Source: Squalus acanthias
Taxonomy: Eukaryota
Length of the DNA: 64,000 nt
Reading direction: 5' to 3'
NCBI GenBank assembly: GCA_030390025.1
Contig: CM059432.1
Span: 88,538,001-88,602,000 of the forward strand
The translations under genes and the position numbers were made by a program. The notes under the pieces were generated by a model. That model was not told where the DNA came from. It saw nothing but the letters and a program-made list of their open reading frames with translations, and did no database searches. Every line of letters starts with the position of its first letter. Position 1 is the first letter of the stretch. This document shows positions 15,319 through 54,500 of this stretch, piece after piece.

Positions 15319-16269
15319 ATGAAAGGGGACCTCAGTCCCGTGCGTTGCATGGCCTGCAGCATGTGGGAATTCCTAGACGCTTCTTGCAGTCAGGATAACC
15401 ACATGTGCAGGAAGTGCCAACGGTTTGGCCAACTTGAGATCCAGTTTTCAGAGCTCGAGCGTCAGCTGGAGACACTGCGGTGTATCCGCGAGGCTGAGAG
15501 TTACGTGGATAGCACGTTTTTAGACGTGGTCACCCCGCAGCTTAAGAAAGTGCAGTCAGAGATGGAATGGGTGACCACCAGTCAGAAAAAGAGGGGCAGG
15601 CAGGTAGTCAGGAAAGCCCCAGAGTGCATCTCACTCAACAACCGTTTTTCTGTGTTGGAAAACGGTGAAAGTGACGGTTCCTCTGGGGAGTGCAGCCAGA
15701 GCCAAGTTCACAGCACTGTGGTTGATTCAGCTGCACAAGGGAGGAGGAGTAAGAGTGGAAGGGCAATAGTGGTAGGAGACTCAATAGTGAGGGGTGCAGA
15801 CAGGCGTTTCTGCGGCTGCAGACGTGACTCCAGGATGGTATGTTGCCTCCCTGGTGCCAGGGTCAAGGATGTCACTGAATGGCTGCAGGGCATTCTGAAG
15901 GGGGAGGGCGAACAGTCAGAGGTCGTGGTTCACACTGGTACCAACGACATAGGTAGAAAGAGGGATGAGGTCCTGCAACAAGAATTTAGGGAGCTAGGTA
16001 GCAGATTAAAAAGCAGGACCTCAAAGGTTGTAATCTCTGGATTACTCCCGGTGCCACGTGCTAGTGAGTATAGCAATAGGAGGATAGAGCAGATGAATGC
16101 GTGGCTAAAGAGTTGGTGCAGGAGGGAGGGCTTTAGTTTCCTGGATCACTGGGTTTGCTTCTGGGGAAGGTGGGACCTGTACAAGTCGGACGGGTTGCAC
16201 CTGAACCGGAACAGGACCAACATCCTTGTGGGGAGGTTTGCTAATGCTGTTTGGGGGGGTTTAAACTAA
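15319..16269 (+). CDS. CR1 ORF1p: Cys-rich zinc finger + coiled coil + SGNH/GDSL esterase
   Basis: Uninterrupted 316 aa with CMACSMW..CRKC, VVGDSIVR, HTGTND and DGLHLN. Confidence 0.9.
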   Translation: MKGDLSPVRCMACSMWEFLDASCSQDNHMCRKCQRFGQLEIQFSELERQLETLRCIREAESYVDSTFLDVVTPQLKKVQSEMEWVTTSQKKRGRQVVRKAPECISLNNRFSVLENGESDGSSGECSQSQVHSTVVDSAAQGRRSKSGRAIVVGDSIVRGADRRFCGCRRDSRMVCCLPGARVKDVTEWLQGILKGEGEQSEVVVHTGTNDIGRKRDEVLQQEFRELGSRLKSRTSKVVISGLLPVPRASEYSNRRIEQMNAWLKSWCRREGFSFLDHWVCFWGRWDLYKSDGLHLNRNRTNILVGRFANAVWGGLN

Positions 16270-16388
16270 CTTGGCAGGGGGATGGGATATGGAGTGGAGC
16301 TATAGTAGGGGGTGATGCACAGCCAAATATAGTGGAAAAAACAAGTCAGTCTGGAAGGCAGAGCAAATATATAATGGCACAAGGGAGT

Positions 16389-20789: not shown

Positions 20790-21900
20790 AGAGGAACTGG
20801 AGTCTGATGATGCGTTCACGGACAGCCCGTCTAGAATGTGGATGTGCAGGCTGCCTCCTCCCTTCCTCCTCCTCCTCCTCTTCCTCCTCTCCTCCTCCTG
20901 TGGTGGTTGTGGAACCCATGGTGGCAAGGGCCGCTCCCTCATGATGGCCAAGTTGTGGAGCATGCAGCAGACCACCACAAACTGGGACACCTGCTCCGGC
21001 GAGTACTGGAGGTCTCCTCCCAAGCGGTCAAGGCAGTGGTCTGCTCGATGAGGTTCCTCGAGGTAGCATGGCTCTTATTATATGAGTCCTGGCCGCGAAT
21101 GGTGGGGTTTCACAGGGGAGTTATCAGCCAGGAGTAGAGTGAATAGTCCTTGTCACTGAGCAGCCACCCTCGGGTTCAACGTGGTGGCTGGAAGATTGCT
21201 GGCACAGCAGACGGGCGAAGGATAAACGCATCATGACTGCTGCCAGGATAGCAGGCATTCACCAGCATGATGTGCTGGGCGTGGTCGCACACCAACTGTA
21301 CATTAAGTGAGTGGTACCCTTTGCAGTTACAGTACATCTCACCATTGAGATGCGGCACCCACAAAGCCACGTGTGTGCAGCCAATGGCACCCTGCACCAT
21401 GGGGAAGCCTGTTATCCTGGCAAAGTCACATGCGCGCTCCTCCTGCTTCTGTCTGTTTAGAGAGAAGACAATGAAGTCCCTTTTCTAACATACAGAGCCT
21501 CTGTGACCTTCCGAATGCAACGATGGATGGTGAACTGCAGGATGTTTGTTATGTCGCCTGTTCCAGCCAGGAAGGATCCGCTGACGAAAACATTCAGGGC
21601 CACGGTGACCTTGAGGGCCACTGGCATCACCGGCACCACCCTGCTCTGAGGCTGCATGTCTGGTTCCAAGAGGTGGCAGAGTTCTGTGACCACCTACTGG
21701 GTGAAGCGGAGCTGCCAAACACACTGCTCCTGGCTTAGGTGCAGGTAGGTGAAGTGCTCCTGAAGACCCTAGGGGGGTAAGGCCTCCGGCTGAGAGCCCT
21801 CAGCCTCCTCCTCCCTCTGCAATCAGCTTGTCTTCTTTGCTGCCTCTGCTCCATCTCCGTGTCATGCTGCAGCACGAGGGGGACTGCAACTAAAGCCCCT
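20790..21900 (-). pseudogene. Harbinger DDE transposase pseudogene
   Basis: The fragments VTELCHLLEPD, MVQGAIGCTHV, KGYHSLNVQLVCD, YPGSSHDAFILR and VVVCCMLHNLAI lie in different frames. Confidence 0.88.
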
Positions 21901-23831: not shown

Positions 23832-25354
23832 GGGCTAGAAATTTATTATAGCCCAGGAATGGGTGGTGTCATTTGAAAAGTTTGAGAATTAGCGCCAGGC
23901 GCTAATGCTTTAGACTGCACGCAAAATTCATTCTCACTGCTCAAAGAAATGATTGGAGCGCTAATTCAAGTCTTAAAGGCCTAGCTCAGTGGCGTTATAC
24001 TCAAAGAGTGGACCAATATCGGGTGCAGTCTAATCTCAACTCATCATTGCCACAGGCTTTTCCCAGTACTTAAAGGGGAGGTTCATTGATACTGCAGCAC
24101 CTCATTCTCAGCATTGCTGGCTGTGCAGCTGCCTCAGCAAGGAGAAGCACAACAAGGAGAAGGAGCTGAAGGACTGAAGCAGGTGTGCTCATGGCAGATC
24201 CACCTCAGTCGGGTAGTCAGGGTGATTGAATGCTTCACCAAATGCTACATACCACCATCTGTACCACAAACTTCACACACTGCCCAAAGCACCACATCCC
24301 CAGCGCTCACCCACCAACAATCTCTATCTACCAACACTCACACCCACATCTCATGCCTTGCACACAATGACAGCTATTCAACGATGGCAGGCACAAGGGT
24401 CATTAGTTATTAGAATGAATGTGATATGTGTGATACGTTTATGCATAAATTTATGAATGGAGTTTGCAATATTTTGTGGTCTCTCTCATTTCACCTTTGT
24501 GCCCAGGAGGACGCTGTGATATGGCATGACACAGAGATGGTATGATGGGGATGTGGTGAGAAAAAGGGATCTGGGTTTAAGTCATCCTGGTGTGAGGCTG
24601 GAGGTCTGTTTGGAGGACGTGGCAGAGTTCTGTGACCAGCACCTTGGTGAAGCGGACCCGTCTAATACACTGCTCCTCGCTTAATTGAAGGTAGGAGAAG
24701 TGCTGTCGGAATACCCTTGGAGGGTAAGGCCTCCTGGTGAGAGCCCTGATGTCCCTCCTCATCCCTCTGCGCACATGTTCCCATATTTCTCACTGCCTAA
24801 GCTCGGCCATAGATCCTGGAGGGCGAGGTGGCATGCCAGTACAGCCCCCATTAATGTTGCCAAGTGTAGCAGTTTGAATCTTTGAACAATAAATGTAGCT
24901 ACTTTGTAGTTGCCAGACGACTGCTGATACAAAGGAAGCTTGAAATTACTCATAGGAACTGTTCTAGTGAGTGAAACTGACAACAAACCATTGAAACTAA
25001 CCTGCCCTGACAGCTGGGGGTGATTAATGCTGATGCCTTTAAATAACGTCATTGGAGCCGGCTTTCTGGAGCTGCACGCCAGCTCTCCCTGTCACTGACT
25101 GGTCGAGGCGCTAAGGTAAGTGGCGACAATTAATTTTCCAGATCGGGCGGCCAGTGAGCGTTGCATGCTCACTGACATCTGCCTGGCGTTGAAGTCCCCG
25201 GCAGTACCTCGTACCGGCGGCACAACGGGGGGGGGGGGCCCGGATTTGCCGTGCGTCACTGGATTCACCTCGCCCCGGCGCTACTGCATCAACGCTCTGT
25301 TAGCGCCATCTGCTGACGCTAACGGGAGGCACTGAAGTACCAAATTGTTCCCGC
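23832..25354 (-). mobile_element. non-autonomous Harbinger deletion derivative, copy 2
   Basis: Reverse-complement homolog of 8064-11185 without the LTR, with the same truncation junction QPHTRMT*. Confidence 0.85.
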
Positions 25355-25969: not shown

Positions 25970-27891
25970 CGGCAGTGGAAGCACAAGGCTGAGCCTCAGC
26001 ACAGGGAGAGAGCCCACAGATTCCCAGATGCGGCTCTTGAGGCACTGGTGGTGGCCATAGAGAGGTGGTGGGCACTCCTCTTCCCGTAGACTCACAGGAA
26101 GCCCTTGCCACACACATCTTGAAGGCTCTGGCAAGAGATAGCTGCCTACGCGATGGCCAGCACTGAGGTCCACCGGTCGGTCGTCCAGTGCTGAAAGAAG
26201 TTTGATGACCTCACACGGCAGGTCAAGGTGAGTGAAGGCTTCAGCAAATGTCACATCCCACCATCTGCACCACAAGCCTCTCACACTGCTCAATGCACCA
26301 CACCCCCAGCACTCACCTACCAACAATCTCTACCTATCACCACTCATAACTCACAATCATAGCTTCACTTCACCCTCATAACCTTATCACTGCTGCAACA
26401 CTCACACCTTGCACACATTAATAGCTATTCAACTATGGCAGACACATCACCCAAACACATTGCACCACACTCACTCATTCACTTCCATTTGGCAGACAGG
26501 CGGGGGGCAAGCTGCCATCCATGACCTCACCGACCTGGAGGAGAGAGTGCTGGAGTATATTGGGCGGCAGATGATGGAGGCCTTGGCAACCAGCTAGGTT
26601 TAGCCCCTTGGGGACAATAACGGTATGCTCATTCCTAATCCTTCTTCTCACACCCCACTTCCCCCTCATCCCACAATCTCTTCTCACTCTCAAGCAGCTG
26701 ATGCTGTACGCATGCATATCTTGCTTCCCCCCTCCCCCCCTCCCCCCCTCCCCCCACCGTAACTCGACTCTTGTGCTTTTCTGCTTTCAGCTAATCAAGA
26801 ACACGCACCTGAGCAGCCTGTCCCCGAAGCGATGCAGGAGAGCGAGGGTGGAGAAGAAGAAGAAGAAGAAGACGATACAGCATCACTGCATCTGTCACTC
26901 GCAGACACCAGCTCAGAAACTGGCACTGAGCGTACTTTAGAGGCTAGTGTAGAAGCGGGATCTGCACAGGGTGAGGCACCAGGCATGAGTGGGCTGCAGC
27001 AAGGTGGGGGAAAGGGTAGCTCAGGGGCCAGCTTCTTGGAGGGCGAGTTCACGCGTAAGTTCTGCTGCACAGGACTCAGATGAGGACCTCGATGGGGCGG
27101 CCTTCAGATGAAGAGTGATGGGCATGCACACTGAATTGCTCGGTGCAATGGCAAGTCTGCCAGAGAACCTTTTAGCAATGTCAAGGAGCATGGAGAAGTT
27201 CACCTCCAACATTGCACAGGGCTTTGCGCAGAGCTTGGAGCCTAGGATTTCCAGGTTAGAAATGATGGAAAACTCCCAAAGAGACCGTGTCGACCCAGAC
27301 ATGATGCTGCGTGTAATGGGTGATGTCACGGCTGCCATTGAAGCACAGGCGGAAACGACCCAACGTCTTAGTGCTGCAGCGGAAGTGCAGACCACTATCA
27401 TGTAGTCTCAGCTTGATGGCATCCAAGCTCAGACTGCTGCCATCATGGCTGGGTTTACCACCGTCGACTGGGGCTTGCAGGGTGTCGCAGCAACCCAGCA
27501 ATCTGTCCTCCAACAGATGGCTAGGATTGGTGAGGTGCCGCACTGGGGGAGTGGCAGTGGGTCAGTGGAACAGGACCCTATTGTCCTCTCTCAGGATGAC
27601 AGCATTTCTGTTCCCACCACTGTCGCTCCGCCATTGCCCTTGCCGCTGCCTGTCAGCCAGCCAGCCCAGACTGCTGCCGCCCATGCCGAGATGGTGCAGT
27701 CCACAGCCGGGCCTTCGAGGGCCAGAGCTGCTCAAGGTCGTCCTGCAAGGCCATATGAAGTCTCCCCCATGGAAACTCAGCAGTCTTCCACCAACCATGC
27801 TGCAGCCACTGGGGGAGCACTTCGTAGGTGCAATAGATCAGAAAAGGGGACTCAAACGACAGGCATTAAGGGATTGCACAAGCCTGATTAG
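25970..27891 (+). pseudogene. Harbinger Myb/SANT accessory gene, 3 exons, disrupted
   Basis: RERAHRFPDAALEALV..KKFDDL|gtgagt, then TGGG..LTDLEERV, then exon 3 with MHTELLGAM and VLSQDDSI. In-frame stops are present. Confidence 0.78.
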
Positions 27892-28064
27892 TTTGTATCA
27901 TAAGCGTAAATACGTACCAATTGATTTTTGATAAACTTATTAATTTTGTTTGGAATCTTTTGTAGTGGCTCTCATTTTAGCTTTGTGCCCAGGAGAACGC
28001 TGTGATATTCCATGAATGAGGAATGGTATGATGGGGATGTGGTAAGCAACAGGGATCTTTGGTT

Positions 28065-29230
28065 TCAGTCATTGGAATCAGAGTCTGATGAGTCGTTCAC
28101 GGACATTCTGTCCGGAAGGGGGTTTGGCTGCCTGCCTCCTCCCTTCCTCCACCTCCTCCACCTCCTCACCCTCTCCCACGTCCTCCACCTGAGGTGGTGC
28201 CACAATCCCTCGTGGCAAGGGCTGCACCCTCATGATGGCCAAGTTGTGAAGCATGCAACAGACCACCACGAAATGGGACACCCTGCTCTGCCGACTATTG
28301 GAGGGCTCCTCCCGAGCGGTCAAGGCAGCGGAACCATTGCTTCAGTAGCCCGATGGTCTGCTCGATGATGTTCCTGGTTGAAGCATGGCTCTCATTATAT
28401 GAGTGCTGGGCACGAGTGTTGGGGTTGCGGAGGGGAGTCATGAGCCAGGTGAAGAGCGGATGGCCCTTGTCTCCGAGCAGCCACCCTCGAGTTTGATGTG
28501 GTGGCTGGAAGATTGTTGGCACACCGGACTGACATAGAATGAAGGCATCATGGCTGCTGCTAGGATAGCGGGCATTGACCATCAGGAAGCACTGGACATG
28601 GCCACACACCAACTGCACATTAAGTGATTGGTAACCTATGCAGTTACGGAAGATCTCAGGATTGTTATGTGGCGCCCGCAAAGCCAAGTGGGTGCAGTCG
28701 ATGGCGCCCTGCACCATGGGGACGCCCGCTGTCCTGGCAAAGCCACTTGTGCGCTTGTCCTGCTTCTCTCTGCTCAGAGAGAAAAAAACATAGTCCCTTC
28801 TCCTGGTGTAGAGAGCCTGTGTGACCTTCCGGATGCAGTGATGGACGGCGAACTGGGAGATGTTAGCTATGTCTCCTGCTGCAGACTGGAAGGATCCGCT
28901 GGCAAAGAAATTGAGGGCCACGGTGACCTTGACTGCCACTGGGAGAGTCGTGGTCACCCTGCTCTGAGGCTGCAGGTCTGGTTGCAGGAGGTGGCAGAGT
29001 TCTGAGACCACCTCCTTGGTGAAGCGGAGTCTCCTAATACACTGCTCCTCGCTTAAGTGGAGATAAGAGAAGTGCTCTCAGAAGATCCTAGGTGGGTAAA
29101 GCCTCCTGTTGAGAGCCCTCCTGGCCCTCCTTCTCCTCCCTCTGCGCGCATCTTTTCCTCTCCTTTGCTGCCTCCGCTCCCTCTCCCTAAGATACTCGAG
29201 CGTGAGGGGGGCTGCCAGTACAGCCCCCAT
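28065..29230 (-). pseudogene. Harbinger DDE transposase pseudogene
   Basis: ORF 28295-29011 carries GAIDCTH, LLGDKG and IIEQTIG; both termini are frameshifted. Confidence 0.9.
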
Positions 29231-29858: not shown

Positions 29859-30042
29859 GGGGTAGAAATTGTTCTTAGGCGGTATTGCAAAACGTGCGGT
29901 TTCACAGTGGTCGCCTGTTATACCCCCGCCAGATATTCAGTTTTATTGACTTCAGTAGAGCTGAACATCTGGCGGGCGTATAACAGACAAGCAATGTGAA
30001 GTCGCCCCTTCTACACAACCGCCCAAGAATAATTTCTACCCC
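29859..30042. mobile_element. 184-bp palindromic MITE (Harbinger-type ends)
   Basis: Ends GGGGTAGAAATTGTTCTTAGGCGGT / ACCGCCCAAGAATAATTTCTACCCC, an inner hairpin centred on ttgacttcag, and flanks TAT/TAG. Confidence 0.8.
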
Positions 30043-30974
30043 TAGAATTTTAAACAACATTTTTACTTTCTTGAAGGTGACATATTTAGTAACTGAGATG
30101 CTATAAAAAGATCTTGTCAAAGACTGTGGACTTTGTTTTAAAACATCAGCCTCTTGATTGTTAAACACCAGCAGTTGTAGTACTGATTTTCTGCCTTTAG
30201 ATGTTGTTAGTGGGCTTTGTAAATACAGCACTGCATCAGTGTGTGTAAAGACCGCTCAGGTCATGAACTAGTAATATGAATGCCATTAGTTTTATCCTTA
30301 GTGGTAAGAAATGGAAAGGCTTTGTTGATGTAGGCTCCTTACAGTTCATTTTTCCATTGATGATTATGATAGATAGTTTGGCCATGAGCTATTCTATTGT
30401 GGTGTATTCCATATGCTGCTCAGAAAGACTATTGCATTATCTCATTTAACACTGATTAACAATTGTAAGGCCTACGTATTCGGGGGTTTAGCGCCGGCCG
30501 TTAAGACCCGTTCTGAAGAAAAAATGGCAGCCGACTCGCTTCCACCCGCTTCTGGCAAGTCCTGCAGCGGCTGCCATTTTGGGCAGGTCAGCAGTGCTGC
30601 CGTTGCCTGCGCTCGCTGCAGAACTGCAAATGAGACAGATTGTGATGTCAATGAGTTTGCAACGCTCATTTGACGCTTGATCTGCCATTTTCAACGTCGC
30701 CGCTCCACTTACCGCTCTCTGAATCACGACCAGCTGATCAAGCATTCAGCAGCATTCCAGGAAGAAGCCTCCAGCAGCGCTATTTAAAGGGATCATCATC
30801 AACAACTGCAGCTGACATGGTTTCTCAGTTTAACTGGCTCTGTGTAACTTTCTGCAACTCTTGTAGCTTTCTAAACTTGCTTAAAGTTCCTGAGATGACA
30901 GGGAGTGTTGGTGCAAGTGAAGAACTCCTTCATTCTCATTTAAAGGCTTCTGCTCACACCACTTGGTCACAGTC

Positions 30975-32096
30975 ATGGGGGCTGTGCTCGCAGATCCCTC
31001 ACGCTTGAGTATCTTCGGGAGAGGGAGCCGAGGCAGCGAAAAAAAGGCGAAGATGCTCGCAAAGGGAGGAGGAGGAGGGCCAGGAGGGGTCTCAACAGGA
31101 GGCCTTACCCACCTAGAGTCTTCCGAGAGCACTTCTCTTACCTCCACTTAAGCGAGGAGCCGTGTATTCGGAGGCTCCATTTCACCAAGGAGGTGGTCAC
31201 AGAACTCTGCCACCTCCTGCAACCAGATCTGCAGCCCTTCATTTTTTCTCCAGCGGATCCTTCCAGTCTACAGCAGGTGACATAGCTAACATCTCCCAGT
31301 TCACCGTCCATTGCTGCATCTGGGAGGTCACAGAGGCTCTCTACTCCAGGAGAAGGGACTACATTGTCTTCTCTCTGAGCAGAGAGAAGCAGGATGAGCG
31401 GGCATGTGGCTTTGCCAGGATAGCAGGCTTCCCCATGGTGCATGGTGCAGGGTGCCTTCTACTGCACACACGTGGCTTTGAAGGCACCGTATACCAATGC
31501 TGAGGTATTCCGTAACCTCAAAGGCTACCATTCACTTAATGTGCAGCTGTTGTGCATCATGATGGTGAATACCCACTATCCTGACAGCAGTCATGATGCC
31601 TTCATCCTGCGCCAGTCCTGTGTGCCAGGAATCTTCCAGCCACCATGACAAACCTGAGGGTGGCTGCTCGGAGACAAGGACCATCCGTTCTGCACTTAGC
31701 TGATGTCTCCCCTCCGCAACCCCACCACTCCTACCCAGCACTCATAATAATGACAGCCATGCTGCCACCAAGAACACTATCGAGCAGACCATTGGAGTGC
31801 TCAAGCAACGGTTCCACTGCCTTGACTGTTCGGGAGGAGCCCTGCAGTACTCGGTGGAGCGGGTGTCCCATTTCGTGGTGGTCTGTTGCATGCTCCACAA
31901 CTTGGCCATCATGAAGGCCCAGCCCTTGCCACCAGGGATTGCGGGACCACCTCAGGAGGAGGAGGAGGAGGGAGAGGAGGAGGAGGTGGATGAGGAGGAG
32001 GACGAGGAAGTGGAGGAGGGAGGGAGGAGGCAGGCAGCAAATCCCCATTCCGGACGGGCTGTCCATGAACGCCTCATCAGACTCCAATTCCACTAA
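30975..32096 (+). pseudogene. Harbinger DDE transposase pseudogene
   Basis: Motifs SGSFQS, MVQGAFYCTHV, KGYHSLNVQL, SHDAFILRQ, LKQRFHCLD and CCMLHNLAI plus a poly-E tail, spread over shifted frames. Confidence 0.88.
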
Positions 32097-33176
32097 ATGA
32101 AACCCCAGATCCCCAATACCTCACTACTTCCCCATCATACTGTCCCTCTGTTACGGAACATCACAGCGTGATCCTGGGCACAAAGCTGAAATGAGAGACA
32201 CCACAAAACACACATTCCAAACAAAATTCAGAAATTTATTTGATTCTAATCAAAATTATAATATCAACTGAACACCCGTGTGCATGCCCTGGTCTGTCGT
32301 TAGTGTGCCTTTACCTACTCTAGCGCTCCTACACAATGCTCCCTCAGTGGCTGCAGCATGGCTGGTGGAAGGCTGCTGACTCTCAGTGGGGGAGACTGCA
32401 GATGGCCTTGCAGGATGACCTCAACCAGCTGTGGACCTCGAAGGCCCAGCTGTAGACTGCACCACCTCGGCATGGGCAGCAGTCTGGGCTGGCTGGCTGA
32501 TGAGCAGCGGCAAGGACATGGTGGAGCGGCAGTGGTGGGAGTAGGAAGGCTGTCATCCTGAGAGAGGACAGCAGGTTCTTGCTCCACTGACCCACTGCCA
32601 CTCCCCCGGGGCGGCGCCTCAGCTTCACTAGCAATGTGTTGGAGGACAGTGAGATGTTGGGTCGCTTCTGCCTGTGCTGCAATGGAAGCTGCAACATCGC
32701 CCATCGGTTGTGGTGAGGGGAGTGGGGGGAAAGCAAGATATCTATGCATATACCATCAGCAGCTTGCAAGTGAGAAGAGATTGTGGGATGATGGGGAAGT
32801 GGAATGTGAGAAGAAGGATTAGGTATGACCGTACTGTCATTATCAGCAATGGCTTCAACTTCTCCGGTGGCCTCCAAAAATGTCAAGCACCGATTCCTCC
32901 AGGTCGGTGAGGTTCCATATTGCGGCTTGGCCGCCTCCTATCTGCCGCTGCTCCCTCCTGTTAAGTGCCACCTTTGCCTACAAGAGAAAGGGAAGTGTGT
33001 CAGTGAGTGTGGTGCAATGTGTTTGGGGGATGTGCCTGCCATAGGTGAATAGCTGTCAGTGTGTGCAAGGCGTGCGATGTGGGTGTGAATATTGCAGCAG
33101 TGGTAAGGTTGTAAGGATATAGTGAAGCCATGAATGTGAGGTATGAGTGGTGATAGCTCGAGATTGTTGGTAGGTG

Positions 33177-34312: not shown

Positions 34313-35386
34313 AGGTGAGTGATGGAGGTGTGGTGCATTGAACAGTGTGTGAGTCTCGTGATGCAGATAGTGGGTTATGGCATTTGCCGTGCGAAGTCAT
34401 TAATCTTTTATAGGCACTGGATCTGCGTCCTTGGGATCACACTGGTGGCCGTGACAGAGTGAGCTATCTCCTCCCACAGACTTGTGCAAATGGCCTTGGA
34501 TCTCCTCCTCCCACTCTGTGGTTACAGGACAGTCTGCCTTCGTTGCACAGCCACGACCAAGGCATCCAGTGCAGCATCTGAGAACCTTCTTGTTTACTCC
34601 CTTGGTTGCTGAGCTATGTCTTCACCCACACTGACAATGAGGTGCTGCTGCAACAACGCACCTCCCCTTTCAGTAGTGCAGAGAGCCTAGACCAAACCTG
34701 ACTGGCCAGTAGACAGCACCCGATATTGGCCCCTCCGTTGAGCGCTAAGCCAATCAGCAGCGCATTTAGTGCTGAGATCAGCGCTCCAATCATTATAATG
34801 AGCAGGCGGCATGAATTTTTCATGCTGCCTGCACCACTTTGAACGGGTGCGGGCAAATAGCACTGGCTCTTGACACCGCCCATTTTTGGGCCTAATCCAA
34901 TTTCTGGGCCTAAAAGTTTTAACAGTTTTCTTATTTTATATGTAACTGCTGTATTCCATCTTCATTTTCCTTGAAGCACAGTAACAGCACTTGTGAAAGC
35001 ATCCACTTTTGCAAATCTTGAACTCTAGGGGGGAAAAATTAGGTCGCGCCCCGTTTGGGGCGCAAATATCGTCTGGACGCAAAAATTAGCGCCTGGCGCT
35101 AATTATCGCCACTGATTAGAAACTTCACTTTTACCGCCCCGGGAGGTGAGTGGAGCGCTAAATCAGGCGCTGCACACCTGTCTTAAGGCGCAAAGGCCGA
35201 GCAGTGAGGCGCTAACTCAGCGCGCGAGCGCAGCGCAGGTACTGCCAGTTAGCGAGGGAACACAGACACACTGGCGCCGGCCAGTTCTTAAAGCGGGGGG
35301 GCCAACTTGCTCCCCAGCCACACCCTGCTCATTGCAGCCTTGAATCTCGGCCTGGAGAGACCTGTGAATCCATTTTGCTGCCAAGG

Positions 35387-37151
35387 ATGGAGAGGGTGAG
35401 AGAACGAGCTCAGCGCCTCACCGAGCGGGCCTTGGATGCTCTGGTTGGCGCAGTGGAGCGCAGACGATGTATGCTCTTCCCTGAGAGTGGCAGGAGGCCT
35501 TTGCCACGCGAGTACAGAAGAGTGTGGAGGGAGGTGGCTCAGAGCGTCTCCTCCAGGATCATGGTGCCCAGGACCCATGTTCAATGCCACAAAAAGTTCA
35601 ACGACCTCACTCGGGTCGTCAGGGTGAGTGGCTTTTTCTCAATACCTCTCCATCCCTCCATCTCAACCTCACTCTATGGCCAGAGGGTGTTAAAACCCCA
35701 ATGCACAACACTCATCCAACACCTATGGCCCTTTCATGAAACACACACACACATTCCACACTTTGCATACAGTAAGGGCTATTCACCTATGGGAGGCACA
35801 TCAGGCAAGACCATGGCTGTATTTTACTCAGATGCTGTCCTTTTACTTGCAGGCCAAGCTGGCGCATAATAGGAGACAGCAGCAACGGACAGGTGGAGGG
35901 CGGCCTCAGCTGCAACCCCTCAGCGATCTTGAGGAGCGCGTCCACAGGATTGTGGCAAGCCGGGTGATCGGTCCCGTCGCCACTGGAGACGCCGACCCCG
36001 TTCTTGACAGCAATGGTAAGGTCATCACCTTTTTGTCCTCTGTCCTTCCACTTGTCCCTCACAACACCAGCCTTTGACACTTTCAATCCAACTTGCTAAC
36101 TCGCTGCACTTATTCCTCCCTTACTGCCACCCTGTCCTCACGCTAAAGCCACTCTTGTACCTCCCTGCTTTCAGATGGTGATTCACCAGCTGAGGAGACG
36201 GGCCCTGAAGCTGCCAGTGGGAGTGAAGCTGCAGGCGAGGAGGAAGATGAAGGCGGAGCATCAGTGCCACCCTATCCCGAGGAAGCCCATGCCCACACTG
36301 GGAACACGCCTTCCCTGGAGGGGAGCAGGGGGGAAGGGTCTGATGAGGGTGAAGCTCCAGGACCCAGCGGGCTGCAGCAACGCCATGGGGGTAGGGAAGA
36401 ATGGGGGCCTTCTCCCCAGAGGGAGAGTATGCCAGCGACTCCTACTGCAATGGACGCAGAGGAGGAGCGGCTGATCGCAGAAATGAACACCCAGGCGGTG
36501 GGCATGCACACTGAGCTCATGGGTGCAGTGGGAAGGGTGCCCGAATGCATTGAGTCACTGGCAAGGAGTGTGGAGCACTTCGCTGTAGCACAGGCGGATG
36601 CCACACTAAAGCTTAGTGCTGCAATTCAGTCACTGACTGCCGTGATCCCATCTCTGACTGCTCTCATGCAGACTCAGATTGAGGCCACGCGAGCACTGAC
36701 TGCTGCCAACCTCGATGGTTCGTTCACATGTCCCCGGGGCTCTCACCACGCCGCAGCAGGCCAGCAATCTGTGCTCCAGCAGATTGCTCCGGATGCTGAA
36801 GTGCTGCCCCTTGGGAGTGCCAGTGTGTCGGTCGAGCAAGGAGTTGCTGTCCTCTCTCACGATGACAGCATTCCTGCTGCCAACACTGTCACTTCTCCAC
36901 TGCACTTGCCACCGCCTGTAGGACAGACTGCTGCCGCCCATGCAGAGTTGGTGCAGTCTGCAGCCGGGCCCTCCAGGCCCAGAACTGGTCGAGGCCGTCC
37001 TTCAGGGGCATCTGCAGTGTCAGGGTCTGACAATCAGCAGCCTTCCACCAGCCTTGCTGCAGCCACTAAGGTCCCATTACGGAGGAGCAGTAGGGTTAGA
37101 AGGGGGGAAGTGCGCAAGGGAAGGAGATCACCCTCGAAGGGCAAAAAGTAG
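35387..37151 (+). CDS. Harbinger Myb/SANT-like DNA-binding protein; join(35387-35623, 35853-36015, 36175-37151), 458 aa
   Basis: Canonical GT-AG introns (agg|gtgagt, ttgcag|gcc, atg|gtaagg, tttcag|at). The phases give one open frame with WREVAQ..QCHKKFNDL, AHNRRQQQRTGGG and LSDLEERV. Confidence 0.87.
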
Positions 37152-37462
37152 GAGGCGTGACAAAATGCTGGTCATTTTTTTATTAAAGGCCGGGGTTCAT
37201 GGTCCAACTTTTGTTTAGTGTTTTGACATTATCTCCAGGTTGTGAGAACCAGTTATGTTAATGACTGTTTTTTTGTGTTTATTTCTATGAGTTTGTCATG
37301 AGGAAATGACACACACAGAGTTTGTAAAATAAATAAGTTTTTGTATTCAAAATATACATGTTTGGTCTTTGGAATCATTGGTGCCTTGGCCGGCTTAGGG
37401 GTTGCGTGCTGGGTTCATTGATGTTGTTAGCAATGGCAGAAGCCATTTCCACAGCAGGGGCC

Positions 37463-38623
37463 CTAGAAGCGGCTTGCTATCAGCCGTTGACGGACGGCTC
37501 TTGCAGTTTCACCATTGTGGGCCGCCCTCCCTCCTTGGTGCTGCTGATAATCATCCTCCTCGTCCTCTTCCTCCTCTTCCTCCTCCTCCTCTGGTGGTGC
37601 TCCAAGGCCTGGTGGCATTGGCTGGGTCCTGACGATTGCCATGTTATGCAACATGCAGCACACAACTACGAAGTTGGATACTCGCTCAGGCGAGTACTGC
37701 AGGGCTCCTCCAGAATGGTCGAGACAGCGGAACCGTTGCTTCAGCACGCCGATTGTGCGCTCAATGATGTTCCTGGTAGCTTGATGGCTCTCGTTGTACC
37801 GCAGCTCAGCAGGGGTGTTGGGCGTACGGAGCGGTGTCATCAGCCAGGTGCTCAATGGATACCCCTTGTCCCCGAGAAGCCAACCAACTGGCTGATGCGG
37901 TGCCTCGAAAAGTTCTGCCACAGTAGTCTGGCGCAGGATGAAAGCATCGTGGCAGCTGCCAGGATAGTGGGCATTGACAGCGAGTATCAGCTGTCTGTGG
38001 TCACAGACCAACTGAACATTCAAGGAATGGAACCCCTTTCTGTTCCGGAAATCCTCGGCATTCTCATGCGAAGCACGCAAAGCCACATGCGTGCAGTCAA
38101 TGGCGCCCTGCACCATGGGGAAGCCCGCTATCCTCGCAAAGCCCAGAGCGCGGTCACGCTGCTTGTCTGGGGTCATGGGGAAAGAGATGAACTCTCGTCT
38201 CCTTTTAAAGAGGGCATTTGTGACCTGCCGGATGCAGCAATGCACCGCGAACTGGGAGATATTGGCGAGGTCCCCAGCAGCAGCTTGAAATGAGCCAGTA
38301 GCATAGAAGTTGAGAGCCACTGTGACCTTCACTGCCACCGACAGAGACGTCCTGGACCTCAGTTGAGGCTGCAGATCTGGCTGCAGCAGGTGGCAGAGCT
38401 CAGTGACCACCTCCTTGCTGAATCGCAGCCTTCGCAAACACAGCTCCTCAGACAAATGAATGTAGGAGAGCTGTTCACGATATACCCTGGGAGGGTAAGC
38501 TCTCCTGTACAGACGCCTGTTGGCCCTCCTCCGTCTGGCCATCATCGCCATTCTCTCTCTGCGTCTCTGTGTCCTCCGATTCAGCTGGAGCAGGACGACG
38601 CCCCCATTCAGTGCAGCCCCCAT
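37463..38623 (-). CDS. Harbinger DDE transposase (HARBI1-like), 386 aa
   Basis: An uninterrupted ORF from the ATG at 38623 carries the catalytic GAIDCTH, LLGDKGY and IIERTIG motifs, plus RKGFHSLNVQLVCD and CCMLHN. Confidence 0.95.
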   Translation of the reverse strand: MGAALNGGVVLLQLNRRTQRRRERMAMMARRRRANRRLYRRAYPPRVYREQLSYIHLSEELCLRRLRFSKEVVTELCHLLQPDLQPQLRSRTSLSVAVKVTVALNFYATGSFQAAAGDLANISQFAVHCCIRQVTNALFKRRREFISFPMTPDKQRDRALGFARIAGFPMVQGAIDCTHVALRASHENAEDFRNRKGFHSLNVQLVCDHRQLILAVNAHYPGSCHDAFILRQTTVAELFEAPHQPVGWLLGDKGYPLSTWLMTPLRTPNTPAELRYNESHQATRNIIERTIGVLKQRFRCLDHSGGALQYSPERVSNFVVVCCMLHNMAIVRTQPMPPGLGAPPEEEEEEEEEDEEDDYQQHQGGRAAHNGETARAVRQRLIASRF

Positions 38624-38795
38624 AGTCTCTTTGCAAGCAAAGTTATGAAGGACAGCAACCAAAGTACCAGCGAAGTTAGGATCAGTAGGCAAAACTACCT
38701 CACAAAGCGTTGACTCAATGCAGAAGTCTCTCTTTCTCTCTCAGAATGAGTGGTACAAAAATGTCAACCACAGAAAAAGACAGGAAGAGGCCCCC

Positions 38796-38803
38796 TTTAA
38801 ATA
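38796..38803 (-). promoter_or_regulatory. candidate TATA box of the transposase gene
   Basis: TATTTAAA on the minus strand ~175 nt upstream of the ATG. The same motif sits at the equivalent place in other copies (~8355, ~25038, ~29417, ~30781). Confidence 0.5.
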
Positions 38804-39133
38804 GCGCCCCCCCCAGTCCCACAGCGATTGATAGCGTTCCAGTCTTCCGGTCGTTGGATGCGCCAGGCGGTAAGGCAGGGGGCGCCACTCAATTTCCGCT
38901 CCGGGGCGCCACAAGGGCGTTGCACCATGGAATGACGTCACAATCTGCGCGCGCAGGTGGTCGCAGCGGTAAAGTTTAGCGCCGCCGCACAATGTCTAGT
39001 TAAGTTCCCGAGCGGCGCAAACATCGCTGCGCCCAGGCGCTAGCGGCTTTGCGCCCCATTAGCGCCCTCTTAAGGCGCTAACGGGAGGCGCAACCAACTG
39101 AATTTTTCCCCCTAGTTGTTCTCAGAAATTTCA

Positions 39134-42100
39134 GGTACGGCAGTGTAATGGTTATGTTACTGGACTAGTAATACAGAGGCCTGAACTAATAATCCGTGAG
39201 ACGTGAGTTCAAATCCTGCCAAGGTAGTTTGTGAATTTGAATTCAGTAAAAATAAAAAATAAAATAAATCTGGAATAAAAAGCTAGTATCTGTAATGGTG
39301 ACCATGAAGCTACTGGATTGTTGTAAAAACCCATCTGGTTCACTAATGTCCTTCAGTGGAAGGAAATCTGCTTTCCTTACCTGCTCGGGCCTATAAGTGA
39401 CTCCAAACCCACACCAATGTGGTTGAATCTTGATTGGCAAGCCACTCAGTTTTATCAAATTGGTACAAAGATGTATAATAAATTGCTACACAGGAAGTGG
39501 TTGAGGCAAATAGTTTAGATTCCTTCAAAAGGAGAAACCTAGACGAGTACTTGAAAGATAAAGGAATAGAAAGATATGCTACAAGGCTGAGATGAGTCAG
39601 AAGGAATGGGAGGACACTCGTGTGGAGTATAAACACCAGCACAGACTAGCCGAATGGCCTGTTTCTGTGATGTATATTCTATGTAATAAGAATAAAACTG
39701 ACAGACCACTTGGTTTCGACTTAGGCATTGGATTCGGATACGACAAAGGCACACCCAGACCAGTCGACCCTGTAATGTCCTCCTCACTAATACCTGAGGT
39801 CCAAAGGTGGGAGAGCTGTCCCACAGACTAGCCAAGCAACAGCCTGACATAGTTATACTCACAGAATCGTACCTATCAGCCAATGGCTCAGACTCCTCCA
39901 TCACCACCCCTGGGTGTGTCCTGTCCCACTGGCAGGACAGACCCACCAGGGGTAGCGGCACAGTAGTATGCAGTTGGGAGGAAGTGGCCCTGGGAGGCCT
40001 CAACATTGACTATGTACCCCATGAAGTTTCATGGCACCAGGTCAAACATGGGCAAGGAAACCTCCTGCTGATTACCACCTACCGCCCTCCCTCAGCTGAT
40101 GAATCAGTACTCCTCCATGTTGAACACTACTTGGAAGAAGCACTGAGGGTAGCAAGGGATCAGAATGTACTCTGGGTGGGGGACTTCAATGTCCATCACC
40201 AGGAGTGGCTCGTTAGTACCACCATTGACTGAGCTGGCCGAGCCTGAAGGAGATAGCTGTCAGACTGGGCTTATGGCAGGGGGTGAGAGAACCAACATGA
40301 GAGAAAAACCTACTCGACCTCGTCCTCACCAATCTACCTGCTGCAGATGCATCTGTCCATGACAGCATTCGTAGCAGTGGCCACCGCACAGTCCTTGTGG
40401 AGACGAAGTTCTGTCTTCACACTGAGGACACCCTCCATCGTGTTGTGTGGCACTACCACCGTGCTAAATGGGATAGATTCAGAACAGATCTAGCAGCTCA
40501 AAACTGGGCATCCATGAGGGGTTATGAGCCATCAGCAGCAGCGGAATTGTATTCCACCACAATCTGCAAACTCATGATGTGGCATATCCCTCACTCCACC
40601 ATTACCGTCAAGCCAGGAGACCAACCCTGGATCAATGAGGAGTGTAGAAGAGCATGCCAGGAGCAGCACCAGGTGTACCTGAAAATGAGGTGCCAACCTG
40701 GTGAAGCTACAACATAGGACTACATGCATGCTAAACAGTGGACGCAGTATGTTATAGACAGAGCTAAGCGATCACACAGCCAGTGGATCAGATCAAAGCT
40801 CTGCTGTCCTGCCACATCCAGTCGTGAATGGTGCTGGACAATTCAACAACTAACAGGAGCAGGCTCCATGAACATCCCCATCCTCAATGATAGCGGAGCC
40901 CAGCATGTGAGTGCAAGAGACAAGGCTGAAGCGTTCACCACCATCTTCAACCAGAAGTGTTGAGTAGATGATCCATCTTGGCCTCCTCCTGAGGTCCCCA
41001 CCATAACAGATGCCAGGTATGTCCTGGCCACAAAAAGCAGGACAAATCCAATCCGGCCAATTACCACCCCATCAGCCTATTCTCCATCATTAGCATATCA
41101 TAAGCAAAGTGATGGAAGGTTTCATCAACACTGCTATCAAGCGGCACTTACTCACCAATAACCTGCTCACTGTTGCTCAGTTTGGGTTCTGTCAGGACCA
41201 CTAGCTCCAGACCTCATTACAGCCTTGGTCCAAACATGGACAAAAGAGCTGAATTCCAGAGGTGAGGTGAGAGTGACTGCCCTTGACATCAAGGCAGCAT
41301 TTGACCGAGTGTGGCATCAAGGAGCCCTAGTAAAGCTGAAGTCAATGGGAATCGGAGGGAAAACTAGCCACTGGCTGGAGTCATACCTAGCACAAAGGAA
41401 GATGGTTGTGATTATTGGAGAACAGTCATCTCAGCCCCAGGACATCGTAGCAGGAGTTCCGAAGGGCAGTGTCCTAGGCCCAACCATCTTCAGCTGCTTC
41501 ATCAATGACCTTCCCTCCAACATAAGGTCAGAAGTGGAGATGTTTGCTGATGATTGCAAAGTGTTCAATTCCATTCACAATTCCTCAGATAATGAATCAG
41601 TCCGTGCTCACTGCAGCAAGATCTGGACAACATCCAGGTTTGGGCTGATAAGTGGCAAGTAACATTTGTGCCATACAAGTGTTAGGCAATGACCATCTTC
41701 AACAAGATAGAGTCTAACCACTGCCCCATGATATTCAATTCTTGGCATTACCATCACCGAATTCCACACCATCAATATCCTGGGGGTCACCATTGATCAG
41801 AAACTTAACTGGACCAGCCACATAAATACTGTGGCTACAAGAGCAGGTCAGAGGCTGGGTATTCTGCAGCGAGTGACTCACCTCCTGACTCCCCAAAACC
41901 TTTCCACCATTTACAAGGCACAAGCCAGGAGTGTGACGGAGTATTCTCCACTTGCCTGGATGAGTGCAGCTCCAACAACACTCAAAAAGCTCGACACCAT
42001 CCAGGACAAAGCAGCCCGCTTGATTGGCACCCCATCCACCACCTTAAACATTCACTCCTTCCACCACCGGCGCACCGTGTCTGCAGTGTGTACCATCTAC

Positions 42101-42454
42101 AAGGTGTACTGTAGCAACTTGCCAAGGCTTTTTCGACAAAACCTCCCAAAGCCGCGACCTCTACCACCTAGAAGGACAAGGGCAGCAGACGCATGGGAAC
42201 ACCACCACCTCCAAGTTCCCCTCCAAGTCACACACCATCCTGACTTAGAAGTATATCACCGATCCTTCATCGTCGCTGGGTCAAAAATCCTGGAACTCCC
42301 TCCCTAACAGCACTGTGGGAGTACCATCACCACATGGACTGCAGCGGTTCAAGAAGGCGGCTCACCACCACCTTCTCAAGAGCAACTAGGGATGGACAAT
42401 AAATGCTGGTATTGCCAGCGACGCCAACATCCTGTGAATGAATGAATAAAAAAA
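39134..42454 (+). mobile_element. tRNA-headed single-ORF LINE (family B), copy B, near full length, decayed
   Basis: A box-like GGCAGTGTAATGG and B box GAGTTCAAATCC (39205), followed by APE (QQPDIVILTESYL, YRPPS, GDFNVHH), RT (LDIKAAFDRVWH, PKGSVLGP, FADD) and a (gaat)n-polyA tail. Confidence 0.88.
39482..39683 (+). mobile_element. CR1 3' fragment inserted in the family B 5'UTR
   Basis: CR1 end motifs flanked by TAATAA on both sides; copy A has an empty site here. Confidence 0.75.
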
Positions 42455-51514: not shown

Positions 51515-54500
51515 CCATAACCTCCAAACTGCTGGAGTGAGCACAAAAGGATCGCTCGCCAAAAACGCCAAGCAAGAGATCCGTCGTCAACTACACCGGA
51601 CAATGACCTCAATCCCTCCACAAGACCCCACCGCCATCAGCATAGATGAACTGAAGGAGGGTTTAGCGGCAATGAAGAAGGGGAAGGCAGACGGTGGATG
51701 ATGGAGATGGAATCCTCTGGAGTTTCTTCATCAACTAGGCCCTGGGGGACTTCAATGGCTGGCGAAACTGTACACCAAAACCATAGAATCCGGATGCATC
51801 CCAAAAGCATGGCGGGAGGCGATAGTCATTGCCATACTCAAACCGGGCAAACTGACCGACGAACCGGGAAGCTATAGGCCAATATCACTCCTGCACATGA
51901 CCTACAAGCTCCTGGGATGAATCATCCTCTGGAGAATCAGCCCTCTTGCCAAGTCAGTGATCCCCGAAAAACAAGTGGGATTCTGGCCTAAACGCAGTTG
52001 CTGCAACCAAGTTTTGGCCCTTGCAACGCACATCGAGACCAGGTTCCAAAAGAAATCTAAAACTGGTGCAGCCTTTGTAGACCTGTCATCAGTCTACGAC
52101 ACGGTCTGGATTAAAGGCCTTATGCTGAAGCTTGCAAGGATCATCCCCTGCCTCAGAACACGACGCCTGCTGAACAATAGGTGGCTACGTGTCCATTTGG
52201 TGACCAAGTCAGCTCGCCCCGGTTGCTGAACAATGGACTACCACAAGGATCAGTGCTCGTGCCAACGCTCTTCAATGTCTGCACAAGTGACATGGCGCCA
52301 ACGAAGCCGCGCAAATTTGCATATGCGGATGGCCTTGCCCTGGCAACACAAGCAGCCACCTTCAATGACATTGAGTCCACCTTGAATGGGGACCTAACCA
52401 TCATGGAGGAATATTTCCGGAAATGGAGGCTCAAGCCAAACCCTCACAAAGCAACAGTCACTGCATTTCATCTTGATAACAGGAACACTAAGCGCACTCT
52501 GAAAGTGACCTTCTGCGGCAACACTGTGCATCATGACCCCACTCCGACCTATCTCAGGGTGAAGCTGGACCATACACTAACCTTCCATGACCAGCTAAAG
52601 GAGTTAGCCGGCAAGACGAAGACAAGGTTCAACCTGGTCCAGAAACTGGCAAGCACAAGCTGGGGAGCATCAGCCTCAGTGCTACGGACATCAGCGATGT
52701 GCCTTGTGTACTCCGTAGCCGAGTACTGTGCACCGGTATGGACCAGAAGTAGCCACACTCGACTTGTTGATGTCCAACTGAACACTGCAATGCGGTGCAT
52801 CACTAGAACCATCAAGTCGACCCAATACCTTGGCTGCCCGAGTTGTTGCACATCGCTCCCCCATCCATTCGCCAAATGCCTCCCCATCCAGTAGGATCTC
52901 AAGAACGTCCCTCACCACCGCTTGAAGTCACGCATGTCCTTTTGGACCCACACTCTTTACCTTCGACAATGCAAATTCAACCCTGATGATACTTGGAAAG
53001 CCGAATGGAGTTCACAAGAAATCACAAACACATACCTCGTGAAATATCTGACACGGAAGATCCCAGGCTTCGATCTTCCGCGAAGTTTACGGGCAACCCT
53101 AAACTGCATCTGCACAAACCATGGCAGATGCAGATACTCTCCAGTGTGCGACTGTGGTCATCCAGAACAGACCATGGAACATATAATGACTCAATGCCCA
53201 ATTCACAAATATGAAGGTGGCATCACAGCAATACACTCCACTACTCCTGTCGCAATTATCTGGCTTAACCACCTAAATGTAAAATTATAGTTGTTGCTCT
53301 ACATCTATATCAGCCATGCAAGGCAGTAGTAGATCCCTAATTGTCAACTATGGCTTCCATTAAGTGCCAGAAAAAATATACTTTGCTGTACTGCACGAAT
53401 AGGCATACACTTGTGGTAAAATGGCAGCCGTTTAGCATATCGAAAACAAACATTTCTTAGAATTTGTGGTTGCTTTTTCAAAAGTAGCTGGAAAAATACC
53501 ATTATCTGTGGCCTGGATAGCGAGTTAACGTCACTGACAGTTGTCAGGAGAGTTCTGTTTACAAATTCTATTTAGCAATTCAGGACAAACCTGCACCATT
53601 TTTTTCACATACATTTACTCAGAATTTCAGTGTCATCTTAGAAATAGCCACTAAATTTCCCTTGAAGGATTGAGAACATATCCTGCCTAACAACAACAGT
53701 CCTGAAGGAATTCAGTTATATTAGGAAGTCTCCATTGCCTTTTTTGCTATTTGTTGCTTTGTGGTATTAAAATTCAGTTTTTCTGAATTCTAGTTTGAAA
53801 TGATAAAGTCTCATGGCGGTTATTTTTTAAGAGGGGAAATGGATACAAAAATATTAAAATCTTTGTTATTTTTGAAAAAAACAACCTCGTGCTTCTGTAG
53901 CAGCATGATTTTTCACATAATTTGTGGAATGCGTTGCGTAAAATGGTTGTGAAATTTATTCAATTCAAATTAAGTAGTTGTAGCAGAGTGTAATCTTTCT
54001 CTATTAAATGTGTCACTCTCTGCAATTGTTCCTTAATATCCTTCACAACTTCAATCTAAGATTGGTAGTTTCTTATGCTGCCACAGTATCAGTAACCTTC
54101 TGAAAAATTCACTGAAGCAGAACCTTGAGATATCAGGTTTGCAAGACCTTGATTATAGCAGGAAGTGGACTGTATAAAGCCTTTTTTTCAGTTAGTGGAA
54201 ATGTTTAGCTATAGAATATGCTGAGGCTGAAAAAAAAGCCTAAAATGATTTTTGAACTCAAGATAATTACCCTGATATAGTTTAATTATTCAAGTGTGTA
54301 AAGTGTTGTGATATCTATTTTAGCATTGTAACAATTTATTTTTATGGCACAGTTTAGGCATAAAGTATTTTTAGAGGCCATTAGCCATTCTCTTGCGATA
54401 AATGAACAGAAGATCAGACTTTACTGGTTACATAGCTGATTGAAAATGAATCATATTACAACTTACAATTACTTCAGCAGAATTATCAGCATTTTTTTAA

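What the first reader, a model, noticed from the sequence alone, without database searches (positions are those of the whole stretch)
35029..39112. Complete, apparently functional two-gene Harbinger transposon in a vertebrate (probably shark) genome
Seen: perfect TIRs, a TAG TSD, an unbroken 386-aa transposase with all three D-D-E motifs, a convergent 3-exon Myb/SANT gene that splices into one 458-aa frame, and retained CpGs. Known: Harbingers need both proteins, and the zebrafish Harbinger3_DR system had to be reconstructed from a consensus. Inference: this is a young and possibly naturally active copy, and a candidate gene-transfer tool.
Basis: partly seen in the sequence, partly recalled or inferred. 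Interest (0 to 1): 0.8.

Follow-up and report, generated by a model that had tools for sequence, protein, structure and literature searches.

The report
Intact-looking, ageing shark Harbinger transposon copy
This is a complete two-gene "jumping gene" with both reading frames unbroken, one copy of a very abundant family in what is likely a shark or ray genome, but it differs from its family by about 1% (including a conserved position of its DNA-binding protein), so it is likely a recently stalled copy rather than an active one.

Summary
The anatomy is confirmed: perfect 12-bp TIRs, TAG on both sides, an open 386-aa DDE transposase (D176/D252/E288) and a convergent three-exon Myb/SANT gene of 458 aa, whose exons are colinear with shark gene models. 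The best transposase hits are chondrichthyan (≤67% identity). Activity is not supported. Public contigs show a very large family, and this copy sits about 0.7–1.3% from the family majority. Of 11 near-fixed coding differences visible, 9 are missense. They include Leu at Myb position 11 (Phe in 33 of 36 homologues) and His at 68 (Arg in 31 of 39). At that divergence both frames stay stop-free 32–58% of the time by chance. No spliced junction or empty site was among the 15 of 187 joints shown. Intact two-ORF vertebrate Harbingers are already in print (269 copies in a sea krait), and Harbingers are already reported in a shark assembly. The scan noted a similar copy elsewhere in this genome. Verdict: a new member of a known kind, probably a dead-or-impaired copy of a once explosive family.

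The parts
35026..35028 (.). [quoted passage not shown]
   Evidence: same triplet on the right; empty site not observed
35029..35040 (+). Left terminal inverted repeat, 12 bp
   Evidence: (I18, 100% complementary)
35041..35290 (.). Left subterminal region with repeated GGCGCWAA/GCGC motifs; predicted Myb-protein binding sites; CpG-rich
   Evidence: 5 of the window's 19 GGCGCWAA matches lie here (2.3 expected in the whole window); GCGC 50 per kb vs 1.2 outside the element; binding role inferred
35387..35623 (+). Myb/SANT gene exon 1 (79 codons, trihelix DNA-binding domain); this copy has Leu11, Ile58 and His68 where the family majority differs
   Evidence: Pfam PF13873 E=2.8e-6
35624..35852 (+). 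Predicted intron 1, 229 nt, GT-AG, phase 0
   Evidence: exon 1 and exon 2 matches are contiguous in P0124, P0125 and others
35853..36015 (+). Myb gene exon 2
   Evidence: 46% identity to P0125 residues 140-192
36016..36174 (+). Predicted intron 2, 159 nt, GT-AG, phase 1
   Evidence: homology colinearity
36175..37151 (+). Myb gene exon 3: acidic linker, conserved middle segment, basic C-terminal tail (candidate nuclear localisation signal)
   Evidence: aligns to P0125 194-553 (E=3e-42); localisation role inferred from composition only
37152..37462 (.). Shared 3' region between the convergent genes; AATAAA at 37328 on the plus strand
37463..38623 (-). Intronless DDE transposase ORF, 386 aa; D176, D226, D252, E288 at codons starting 38098, 37948, 37870, 37762
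   Evidence: AlphaFold2 mean pLDDT 85.7
38791..39100 (.). Right subterminal region with repeated GGCGCWAA/GCGC motifs; CpG-rich
   Evidence: 5 of 19 GGCGCWAA matches; GCGC 47 per kb
39101..39112 (-). Right terminal inverted repeat, 12 bp
   Evidence: loose end of an X13 contig behind 39112
39113..39115 (.). Right copy of the target-site duplication, TAG

Best explanation
This is a full-length two-gene PIF/Harbinger transposon with both frames open that differs about 1% from a very large family, and it is likely a neutrally decaying copy from a past burst rather than a currently self-mobilising element. How the family would have worked is inferred from zebrafish Harbinger3_DR and rice Ping/Pong. 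The Myb-like protein would bind the GGCGCWAA-rich ends and bring the transposase into the nucleus. The DDE transposase would excise the element and insert it into a loosely palindromic target, duplicating 3 bp. After insertion this copy likely collected substitutions without selection, by luck none a stop or frameshift, and some hit conserved residues of the Myb domain. Its transposase may still be catalytically competent, and its intact ends could be moved in trans by another copy's proteins.
For: SHOWN: anatomy. SHOWN: huge multicopy signal. Summed contig depth in DNA run X1 is 0.31-0.85 million across the interior and 1.1-1.8 million in the end bins, against 6.8 and 10.2 for two zero-difference flank contigs (the tool says this is not a copy number). 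SHOWN: 17 of the 31 in-element difference rows displayed have 90% or more of X1 depth reading another letter. Eleven of them are coding: 9 missense and 2 silent, in line with the neutral expectation of roughly 2-2.5:1. SHOWN: Myb position 11 is Phe in 33 of 36 aligned homologues and in the family majority, Leu here. Position 68 is Arg in 31 of 39, His here, a CpG transition. Divergence estimates: 0.7% from the 0.80 word share and 1.3% from 26 differences in 2000 nt of seven X13 contigs. Simulation: both ORFs stay stop-free with P=0.58 at 0.7% and P=0.32 at 1.3% (substitutions only). The epaulette shark mutation rate is 7e-10 per site per generation (PMC10587355, passages), which turns 1% into millions of generations. 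Two-protein mechanism: PMC2836001 and PMC9392472 (passages).
Against: Only 40 of 288 difference rows and 15 of 187 joints were displayed, so the transposase core could not be fully compared with the family, and a splice or empty-site joint may be hidden. An X13 contig over 37680-37960 has 0 differences in 281 nt. The catalytic residues are intact, and only 6 of 141 transposase columns conserved at 70% or more differ; these may be family traits. Phe-to-Leu is conservative, 6 of 39 homologues also have His68, and W47, C67 and F71 are kept. Logan contigs drop rare variants, so a small young subfamily carrying these letters would be under-represented. The mutation rate comes from another species and has a tenfold confidence range, and methylated CpG-rich repeats mutate faster.
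Confidence: 0.72

Rival explanations
1. This copy belongs to a small, still active subfamily. Its differences from the majority were inherited from a living source element, and both native proteins work.
For: Both frames are open, the DDE residues are intact, the TIRs are perfect and the CpG-rich ends are undecayed. 21,559 of 129,630 X1 contigs laid on the stretch (flanks included) are 99% or more alike. Contigs hide rare variants.
Against: At the diagnostic positions 99-100% of depth reads the other letter in X1, X6 and X11. The 9:2 missense:silent ratio shows no purifying selection. A conserved aromatic residue of the Myb domain is lost. The RNA-guessed run X11 shows no exon enrichment, and its contig 35335-35793 is unspliced across the first donor.
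Confidence: 0.1
2. This copy's Myb gene is impaired, but the family is still mobile in the germ line through better-preserved copies, and this copy may have been moved recently in trans.
For: Depth is fairly even across both genes, which implies many full-length copies. At about 1% divergence a third to a half would keep open frames. End bins are about twice as deep as the interior, as expected with non-autonomous derivatives. Trans-complementation is described for a nematode Harbinger (PMC13668399, abstract).
Against: No empty-site joint among the 15 of 187 joints shown. 17 runs labelled as six organisms (plus two unlabelled runs) hold half or more of the words, which suggests the family predates those species splits. 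No transcript evidence.
Confidence: 0.14
3. The locus is a domesticated gene pair (HARBI1/NAIF1/MSANTD-like) kept intact for a host function.
For: Database homologues are named 'putative nuclease HARBI1'; both frames are open.
Against: TIRs and TSD are present, the family is massively multicopy, and no sign of purifying selection was seen. The names are automatic labels on gene models: only 52 of 107 such homologues keep D-D-E.
Confidence: 0.02
4. The family reached several unrelated organisms by recent horizontal transfer.
For: Runs under six organism codes hold 50-80% of the words. Horizontal transfer of Harbingers is reported in sea kraits and fish (PMC8437027, PMC9179366; passages and abstract).
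Against: The two other-organism runs laid (X6, X13) also cover the flanking repeats at about the same ratio to the element as X1, so they hold related host DNA and not the element alone. The closest transposase and Myb homologues are all chondrichthyan.
Confidence: 0.02

Closest known systems
Harbinger-Snek of sea kraits (Laticauda); PMC8437027, passages read
   Same: Vertebrate two-ORF Harbinger family that expanded explosively and still has intact copies (269 in L. colubrina, 1 in L. laticaudata) and non-autonomous derivatives.
   Different: Harbinger-Snek has RNA-seq reads over both ORFs and arrived by horizontal transfer. Here no transcript was shown and the relatives are elasmobranch. No sequence comparison with Harbinger-Snek was made.
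Harbinger3_DR / Harbinger3N_DR of zebrafish (Sinzelle et al. 2008; original not held; seen through PMC2836001, PMC3016246 and PMC9392472 passages)
   Same: Transposase plus Myb-like protein, 3-bp TSD, palindromic 15-bp target. The reconstructed empty site here also reads as an interrupted palindrome (8 of 15 positions self-complementary, outer four on each side).
   Different: Its TSD is CWG against TAG here. It was built from a consensus and shown active in human cells; nothing was assayed here, and no sequence comparison was made.
PIF/Harbinger group as defined by Han et al. 2015; PMC4482050, section 5 and passages read
   Same: Two ORFs (DDE transposase, Myb/SANT), TIR under 60 bp starting with G, length 4084 bp against a 4124-bp average; 88 'potentially active' families with two intact ORFs already listed.
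   Different: TSD is TAG, not the TWA consensus. It also does not match the NuwaI (CWG), NuwaII (C|TNA|G) or Pangu (ANT) patterns exactly.
Chondrichthyan 'putative nuclease HARBI1' and 'myb-related transcription factor, partner of profilin-like' gene models (Pristiophorus, Heptranchias, Narcine, Mobula, Scyliorhinus, Carcharodon, Heterodontus)
   Same: Closest sequences: transposase up to 67% identity; Myb exons colinear with P0124, P0125 and P0129.
   Different: No protein over 67% identical was found. About half of those models have lost a catalytic residue (52 of 107 keep D-D-E), whereas this copy keeps all three.
Tourist/Harbinger repeats of the grey reef shark genome; PMC12498223, passages read
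   Same: Harbinger-type elements are named as the most common DNA transposons of a shark assembly.
   Different: The passages read give only RepeatMasker totals, with no family-level or intact-element description; its supplements were not read.

Membership tests
PIF/Harbinger superfamily | DDE transposase of the Harbinger (DDE_Tnp_4) type with intact triad | tested here: met
   PF13359 E=9e-40; D176, D252, E288 are the majority residues in 120 homologues
PIF/Harbinger superfamily | Second gene encoding a Myb/SANT-domain protein | tested here: met
   PF13873 27.6 bits vs cut-off 21.7; three exons colinear with shark models
PIF/Harbinger superfamily | Short TIRs (mostly under 60 bp) starting with A or G | tested here: met
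   12-bp perfect TIR starting with G; definition from PMC4482050
PIF/Harbinger superfamily | 3-bp target-site duplication | tested here: met
   TAG on both sides; not confirmed by an observed empty site
PIF/Harbinger group sensu Han et al. 2015 | TSD consensus TWA | tested here: inconclusive
   This insertion has TAG. Similar ends in the window are flanked by TAA, TTA, CTA, TAT and others. One insertion cannot give the family consensus.
PIF/Harbinger superfamily | Autonomous length about 4 kb | tested here: met
   4084 bp vs 4124-bp average
PIF/Harbinger superfamily | Both proteins needed; Myb protein binds the ends and the transposase | not testable with these tools
   Needs binding and transposition assays
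Currently active autonomous element | No damaging change against the family at conserved residues | tested here: not met
   Myb Leu11 (Phe in 33 of 36 homologues and in the family majority) and His68 (Arg in 31 of 39); functional effect untested
Currently active autonomous element | Spliced transcripts of both genes | tested here: inconclusive
   One RNA-guessed run of contigs; no splice joint among 15 of 187 joints shown; unspliced contig over intron 1
Currently active autonomous element | Near-identical copies and insertion polymorphism | tested here: inconclusive
   No genome held. X1 has a zero-difference contig reaching 4 bases into the element, and no empty-site joint was shown. X1 may be the source sample.
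Domesticated Harbinger genes (HARBI1, NAIF1, MSANTD) | Single copy, no TIR/TSD, purifying selection | tested here: not met
   TIRs and TSD present, massively multicopy, 9 missense to 2 silent

The most novel reading that the evidence does not exclude
This elasmobranch Harbinger family is still alive. Among its many full-length copies some, possibly this one, encode a native transposase-Myb pair that transposes. That would give a vertebrate PIF/Harbinger shown active without consensus reconstruction, with its own palindromic target preference, usable for gene transfer in shark and other vertebrate cells.
Probability: 0.15. Interest if true: 0.6.

Novelty: new member of a known kind. Interest (0 to 1): 0.3.

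Why it matters
It gives a fully annotated two-gene Harbinger from cartilaginous fish, a group where a 2022 survey found none in elephant shark and asked for more species (PMC9179366). It also shows that many shark 'HARBI1' and 'MYPOP-like' gene models have close relatives inside a transposon. It is a caution as well: in slow-mutating sharks an element with open frames, perfect TIRs and CpG-rich ends can still be millions of generations old. If a native pair from this family did transpose, it would add a two-component vertebrate gene-transfer system and a target for structural work, since no solved structure matched the transposase. Without that it is ordinary repeat annotation.

Tried and rejected
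The whole genome is not held, so there was no direct copy count.

Two word-indexed protein searches with Myb exon 1 and exon 3 found nothing (0 of 348 and 0 of 908 candidates). The full HMMER search found 44 homologues, so those blanks were sensitivity limits.

PDB sequence search gave only low-complexity matches. Foldseek on the model gave no hit at E<=0.001, only weak DDE transposase/integrase hits such as TnsB, Mos1 and piggyBac.

Complex prediction of transposase 1-335 with the middle of Myb exon 3 returned no verdict (score 0.00); it is not used either way.

Run X11 was laid to look for splicing. Its kind is only a guess, its depth follows the DNA profile with no exon enrichment, and its skip 36176-36295 has non-canonical ends.

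Alternative TSD parses (TA or CTA) were rejected because they break the TIR symmetry. Horizontal transfer and domestication were considered and given low odds.

In one search my exon boundaries were one base off, giving one wrong junction residue; corrected. In one search the second catalytic Asp was mis-numbered 253; corrected to 252.

Seven library searches listed no paper describing an intact or assayed shark Harbinger family. Only listings were seen for most hits, subscription papers and Repbase/Dfam are not covered, and supplements of PMC4482050 and PMC12498223 that may list such families were not read.
Full report
OBSERVATION. A 12-nt perfect inverted repeat has arms at 35029-35040 and 39101-39112, and TAG flanks both ends. 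The minus strand holds an uninterrupted ORF from 38623 to 37463, 386 aa, matching Pfam DDE_Tnp_4 at E=9e-40. Its D176, D226, D252 and E288 are the majority residues among 120 homologues, and AlphaFold2 gives a confident model (mean pLDDT 85.7). On the plus strand three exons (35387-35623, 35853-36015, 36175-37151) with GT-AG introns of 229 and 159 nt give 458 codons and one terminal stop. Exon 1 matches Myb_DNA-bind_5 above its cut-off. The splice model is supported by homology: the three exon translations hit shark gene models in order and nearly without gaps, for example P0125 residues 65-137, 140-192 and 194-553. Both ends carry a repeated motif: 10 of the window's 19 GGCGCWAA matches lie there, with 2.3 expected in the whole window. 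CpG retention holds for the ends (O/E 0.86, 0.94) and the transposase (0.59), but not for the Myb gene span (0.43; rest of window 0.41 and 0.35).

HOST AND SETTING. The best transposase homologues are sharks and rays, at most 67% identical, and all ten Myb homologues looked up, of 44 found, are elasmobranch. The host is therefore likely an elasmobranch; no genome is held. The window is repeat-dense, with several decayed Harbinger relatives at about 65-78% identity and many similar terminal repeats.

FAMILY SIZE AND AGE. 17 of the 23 listed public runs hold half or more of the element's sampled words; the best share is 0.80. I laid 4 of the 23. In DNA run X1, two flank contigs match the window with 0 differences at depth 6.8 and 10.2. 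Summed depth inside the element is 0.31-0.85 million, and 1.1-1.8 million in the end bins. The tool warns that this is no copy number, because overlapping short contigs inflate it. Even a 31-fold inflation would leave thousands of related sequences (my inference), with extra end-only derivatives. This copy is not identical to the family: the word share implies about 0.7% divergence, and seven long X13 contigs show 26 differences in 2000 nt, 1.3%. At the epaulette shark rate of 7e-10 per site per generation (95% CI 1.4-14.1e-10; PMC10587355, passages), that is 10-19 million generations, or 5-9 million at the upper rate. This is a rough figure from another species; CpG-rich repeats decay faster, and a copy can be re-mobilised in trans after it has mutated.

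IS THIS COPY FUNCTIONAL? One search displayed 40 of 288 difference rows, 31 of them inside the element. In 17 of these, 90% or more of X1 depth reads another letter. Eleven are coding: 8 missense and 1 silent in the Myb gene, and 1 missense and 1 silent at the transposase N-terminus. A neutral simulation gives about 2-2.5 missense per silent change, and leaves both ORFs stop-free with probability 0.58 at 0.7% and 0.32 at 1.3% divergence (indels not modelled). Open frames therefore need no selection. Two changes fall on conserved positions of the DNA-binding domain. Position 11 is Leu here but Phe in the family majority and in 33 of 36 aligned homologues. Position 68 is His here but Arg in the majority and in 31 of 39. 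Bulky aromatic residues are described as essential for this tri-helix (PMC9392472, passages).

Against my reading: W47 (40 of 40), C67 and F71 are kept, and 6 homologues also have His68. The transposase differs at only 6 of 141 well-conserved columns, and one 281-nt X13 contig over the catalytic region has no difference. The hidden rows prevent a full comparison of the transposase core.

TRANSCRIPTION AND POLYMORPHISM. Neither was shown. None of the 15 joints displayed, of 187, is a predicted splice junction or the empty site. The RNA-guessed run X11 has a contig 35335-35793 running unspliced into intron 1 and no exon enrichment relative to DNA. Its RNA status is a guess and contigs drop rare forms, so this is inconclusive rather than negative.

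MECHANISM. Shown: the parts, the multicopy signal and the private substitutions. [quoted passage not shown] The reconstructed empty site is an interrupted 15-bp palindrome, the same geometry as the Harbinger3_DR target; this rests on one site. That the GGCGCWAA motifs are the Myb binding sites, and that the basic tail of exon 3 is the import signal, are my inferences.

COMPARISON AND NOVELTY. It meets the PIF/Harbinger criteria for transposase, Myb/SANT gene, short G-starting TIR, 3-bp TSD and size (PMC4482050, section 5). The TSD is TAG rather than TWA, which one insertion cannot settle. That paper already lists 88 families with two intact ORFs. Among vertebrates, Harbinger-Snek has 269 intact copies in Laticauda colubrina and RNA reads over both ORFs in L. 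laticaudata (PMC8437027, passages). A naturally mobile animal Harbinger derivative is reported in Caenorhabditis inopinata (PMC13668399, abstract). Harbingers were not detected in elephant shark (PMC9179366, first part and passages), but they are the commonest DNA transposons in the grey reef shark annotation (PMC12498223, passages). My searches listed no paper on an intact or assayed shark family, within a library that lacks subscription journals and Repbase. A sequence look-up in the scan's notes found nothing. A word look-up found a note on a similar near-intact copy elsewhere in this genome, there with a frameshifted Myb gene (unchecked, read after my conclusion and the sea-krait comparison were reached).

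VERDICT. Observation confirmed; interpretation partly supported. It is a well-preserved copy of a large elasmobranch Harbinger family, a new member of a known kind. It is likely impaired in its Myb domain and shows no sign of present activity. Interest 0.3. The boldest reading left open, a still-active family with a usable native pair, has probability about 0.15 and would merit 0.6.

Noticed in passing
window 8263-9455 and 23912-25137: Inverted pair up to 94% identical that contains only the start of a Harbinger transposase (residues 32-89 of the query match); likely two copies of an internally deleted non-autonomous derivative.
   Followed up: partly
window 19664-21787, 26003-29131, 30807-33176, 60564-62382: Decayed two-gene Harbinger relatives with stops and frameshifts, about 65-78% identical to the element; a local pile-up of several Harbinger generations.
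   Followed up: partly
window 29859-30042: 184-bp Tourist-like miniature element with matching 12-bp ends, flanked by TAT on the left and TAG on the right.
   Followed up: partly
window 34631-34910: End of an older Harbinger element, flanked by TAA, only about 118 bp left of the insertion.
   Followed up: partly
terminal-repeat-like sites across the window; X13 loose end behind 39112: Triplets next to these ends include TAG, CTA, TAA, TTA, TAT and ATA, hinting at a TAN/NTA rather than strict TWA target for these shark families.
   Followed up: partly
window 35365 and 37067 (loose ends): All four laid runs hold a sister subfamily with a different sequence just upstream of the Myb start codon; X1 also shows a variant near the Myb C-terminus.
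   Followed up: no
run X13: A 988-million-letter contig set with records up to 132 kb in which only 177 contigs fit, at depth about 20-100 over both the element and the flanking repeats; looks like a trace of host DNA in another organism's run.
   Followed up: partly
P0010: A 523-aa Pristiophorus gene model carries both the Myb (PF13873) and the DDE (PF13359) domains; a fusion or a gene-prediction merge.
   Followed up: no
cluster 5 (P0130, P0165-P0172): A Myb-like protein conserved at 90% or more across four ray species (Hypanus, two Mobula, Hemitrygon); looks like a domesticated Harbinger Myb gene.
   Followed up: no
window 550-1536, 15295-19525, 39798-42307, 52181-53290, 62563-63180: Reverse-transcriptase and endonuclease-like ORF fragments of LINE retrotransposons, recognised by eye translations; family names not tested.
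   Followed up: no
window 14644-14976: Tandem array of about 44-bp GC-rich units, 7 copies listed, just upstream of a LINE ORF1-like frame.
   Followed up: no
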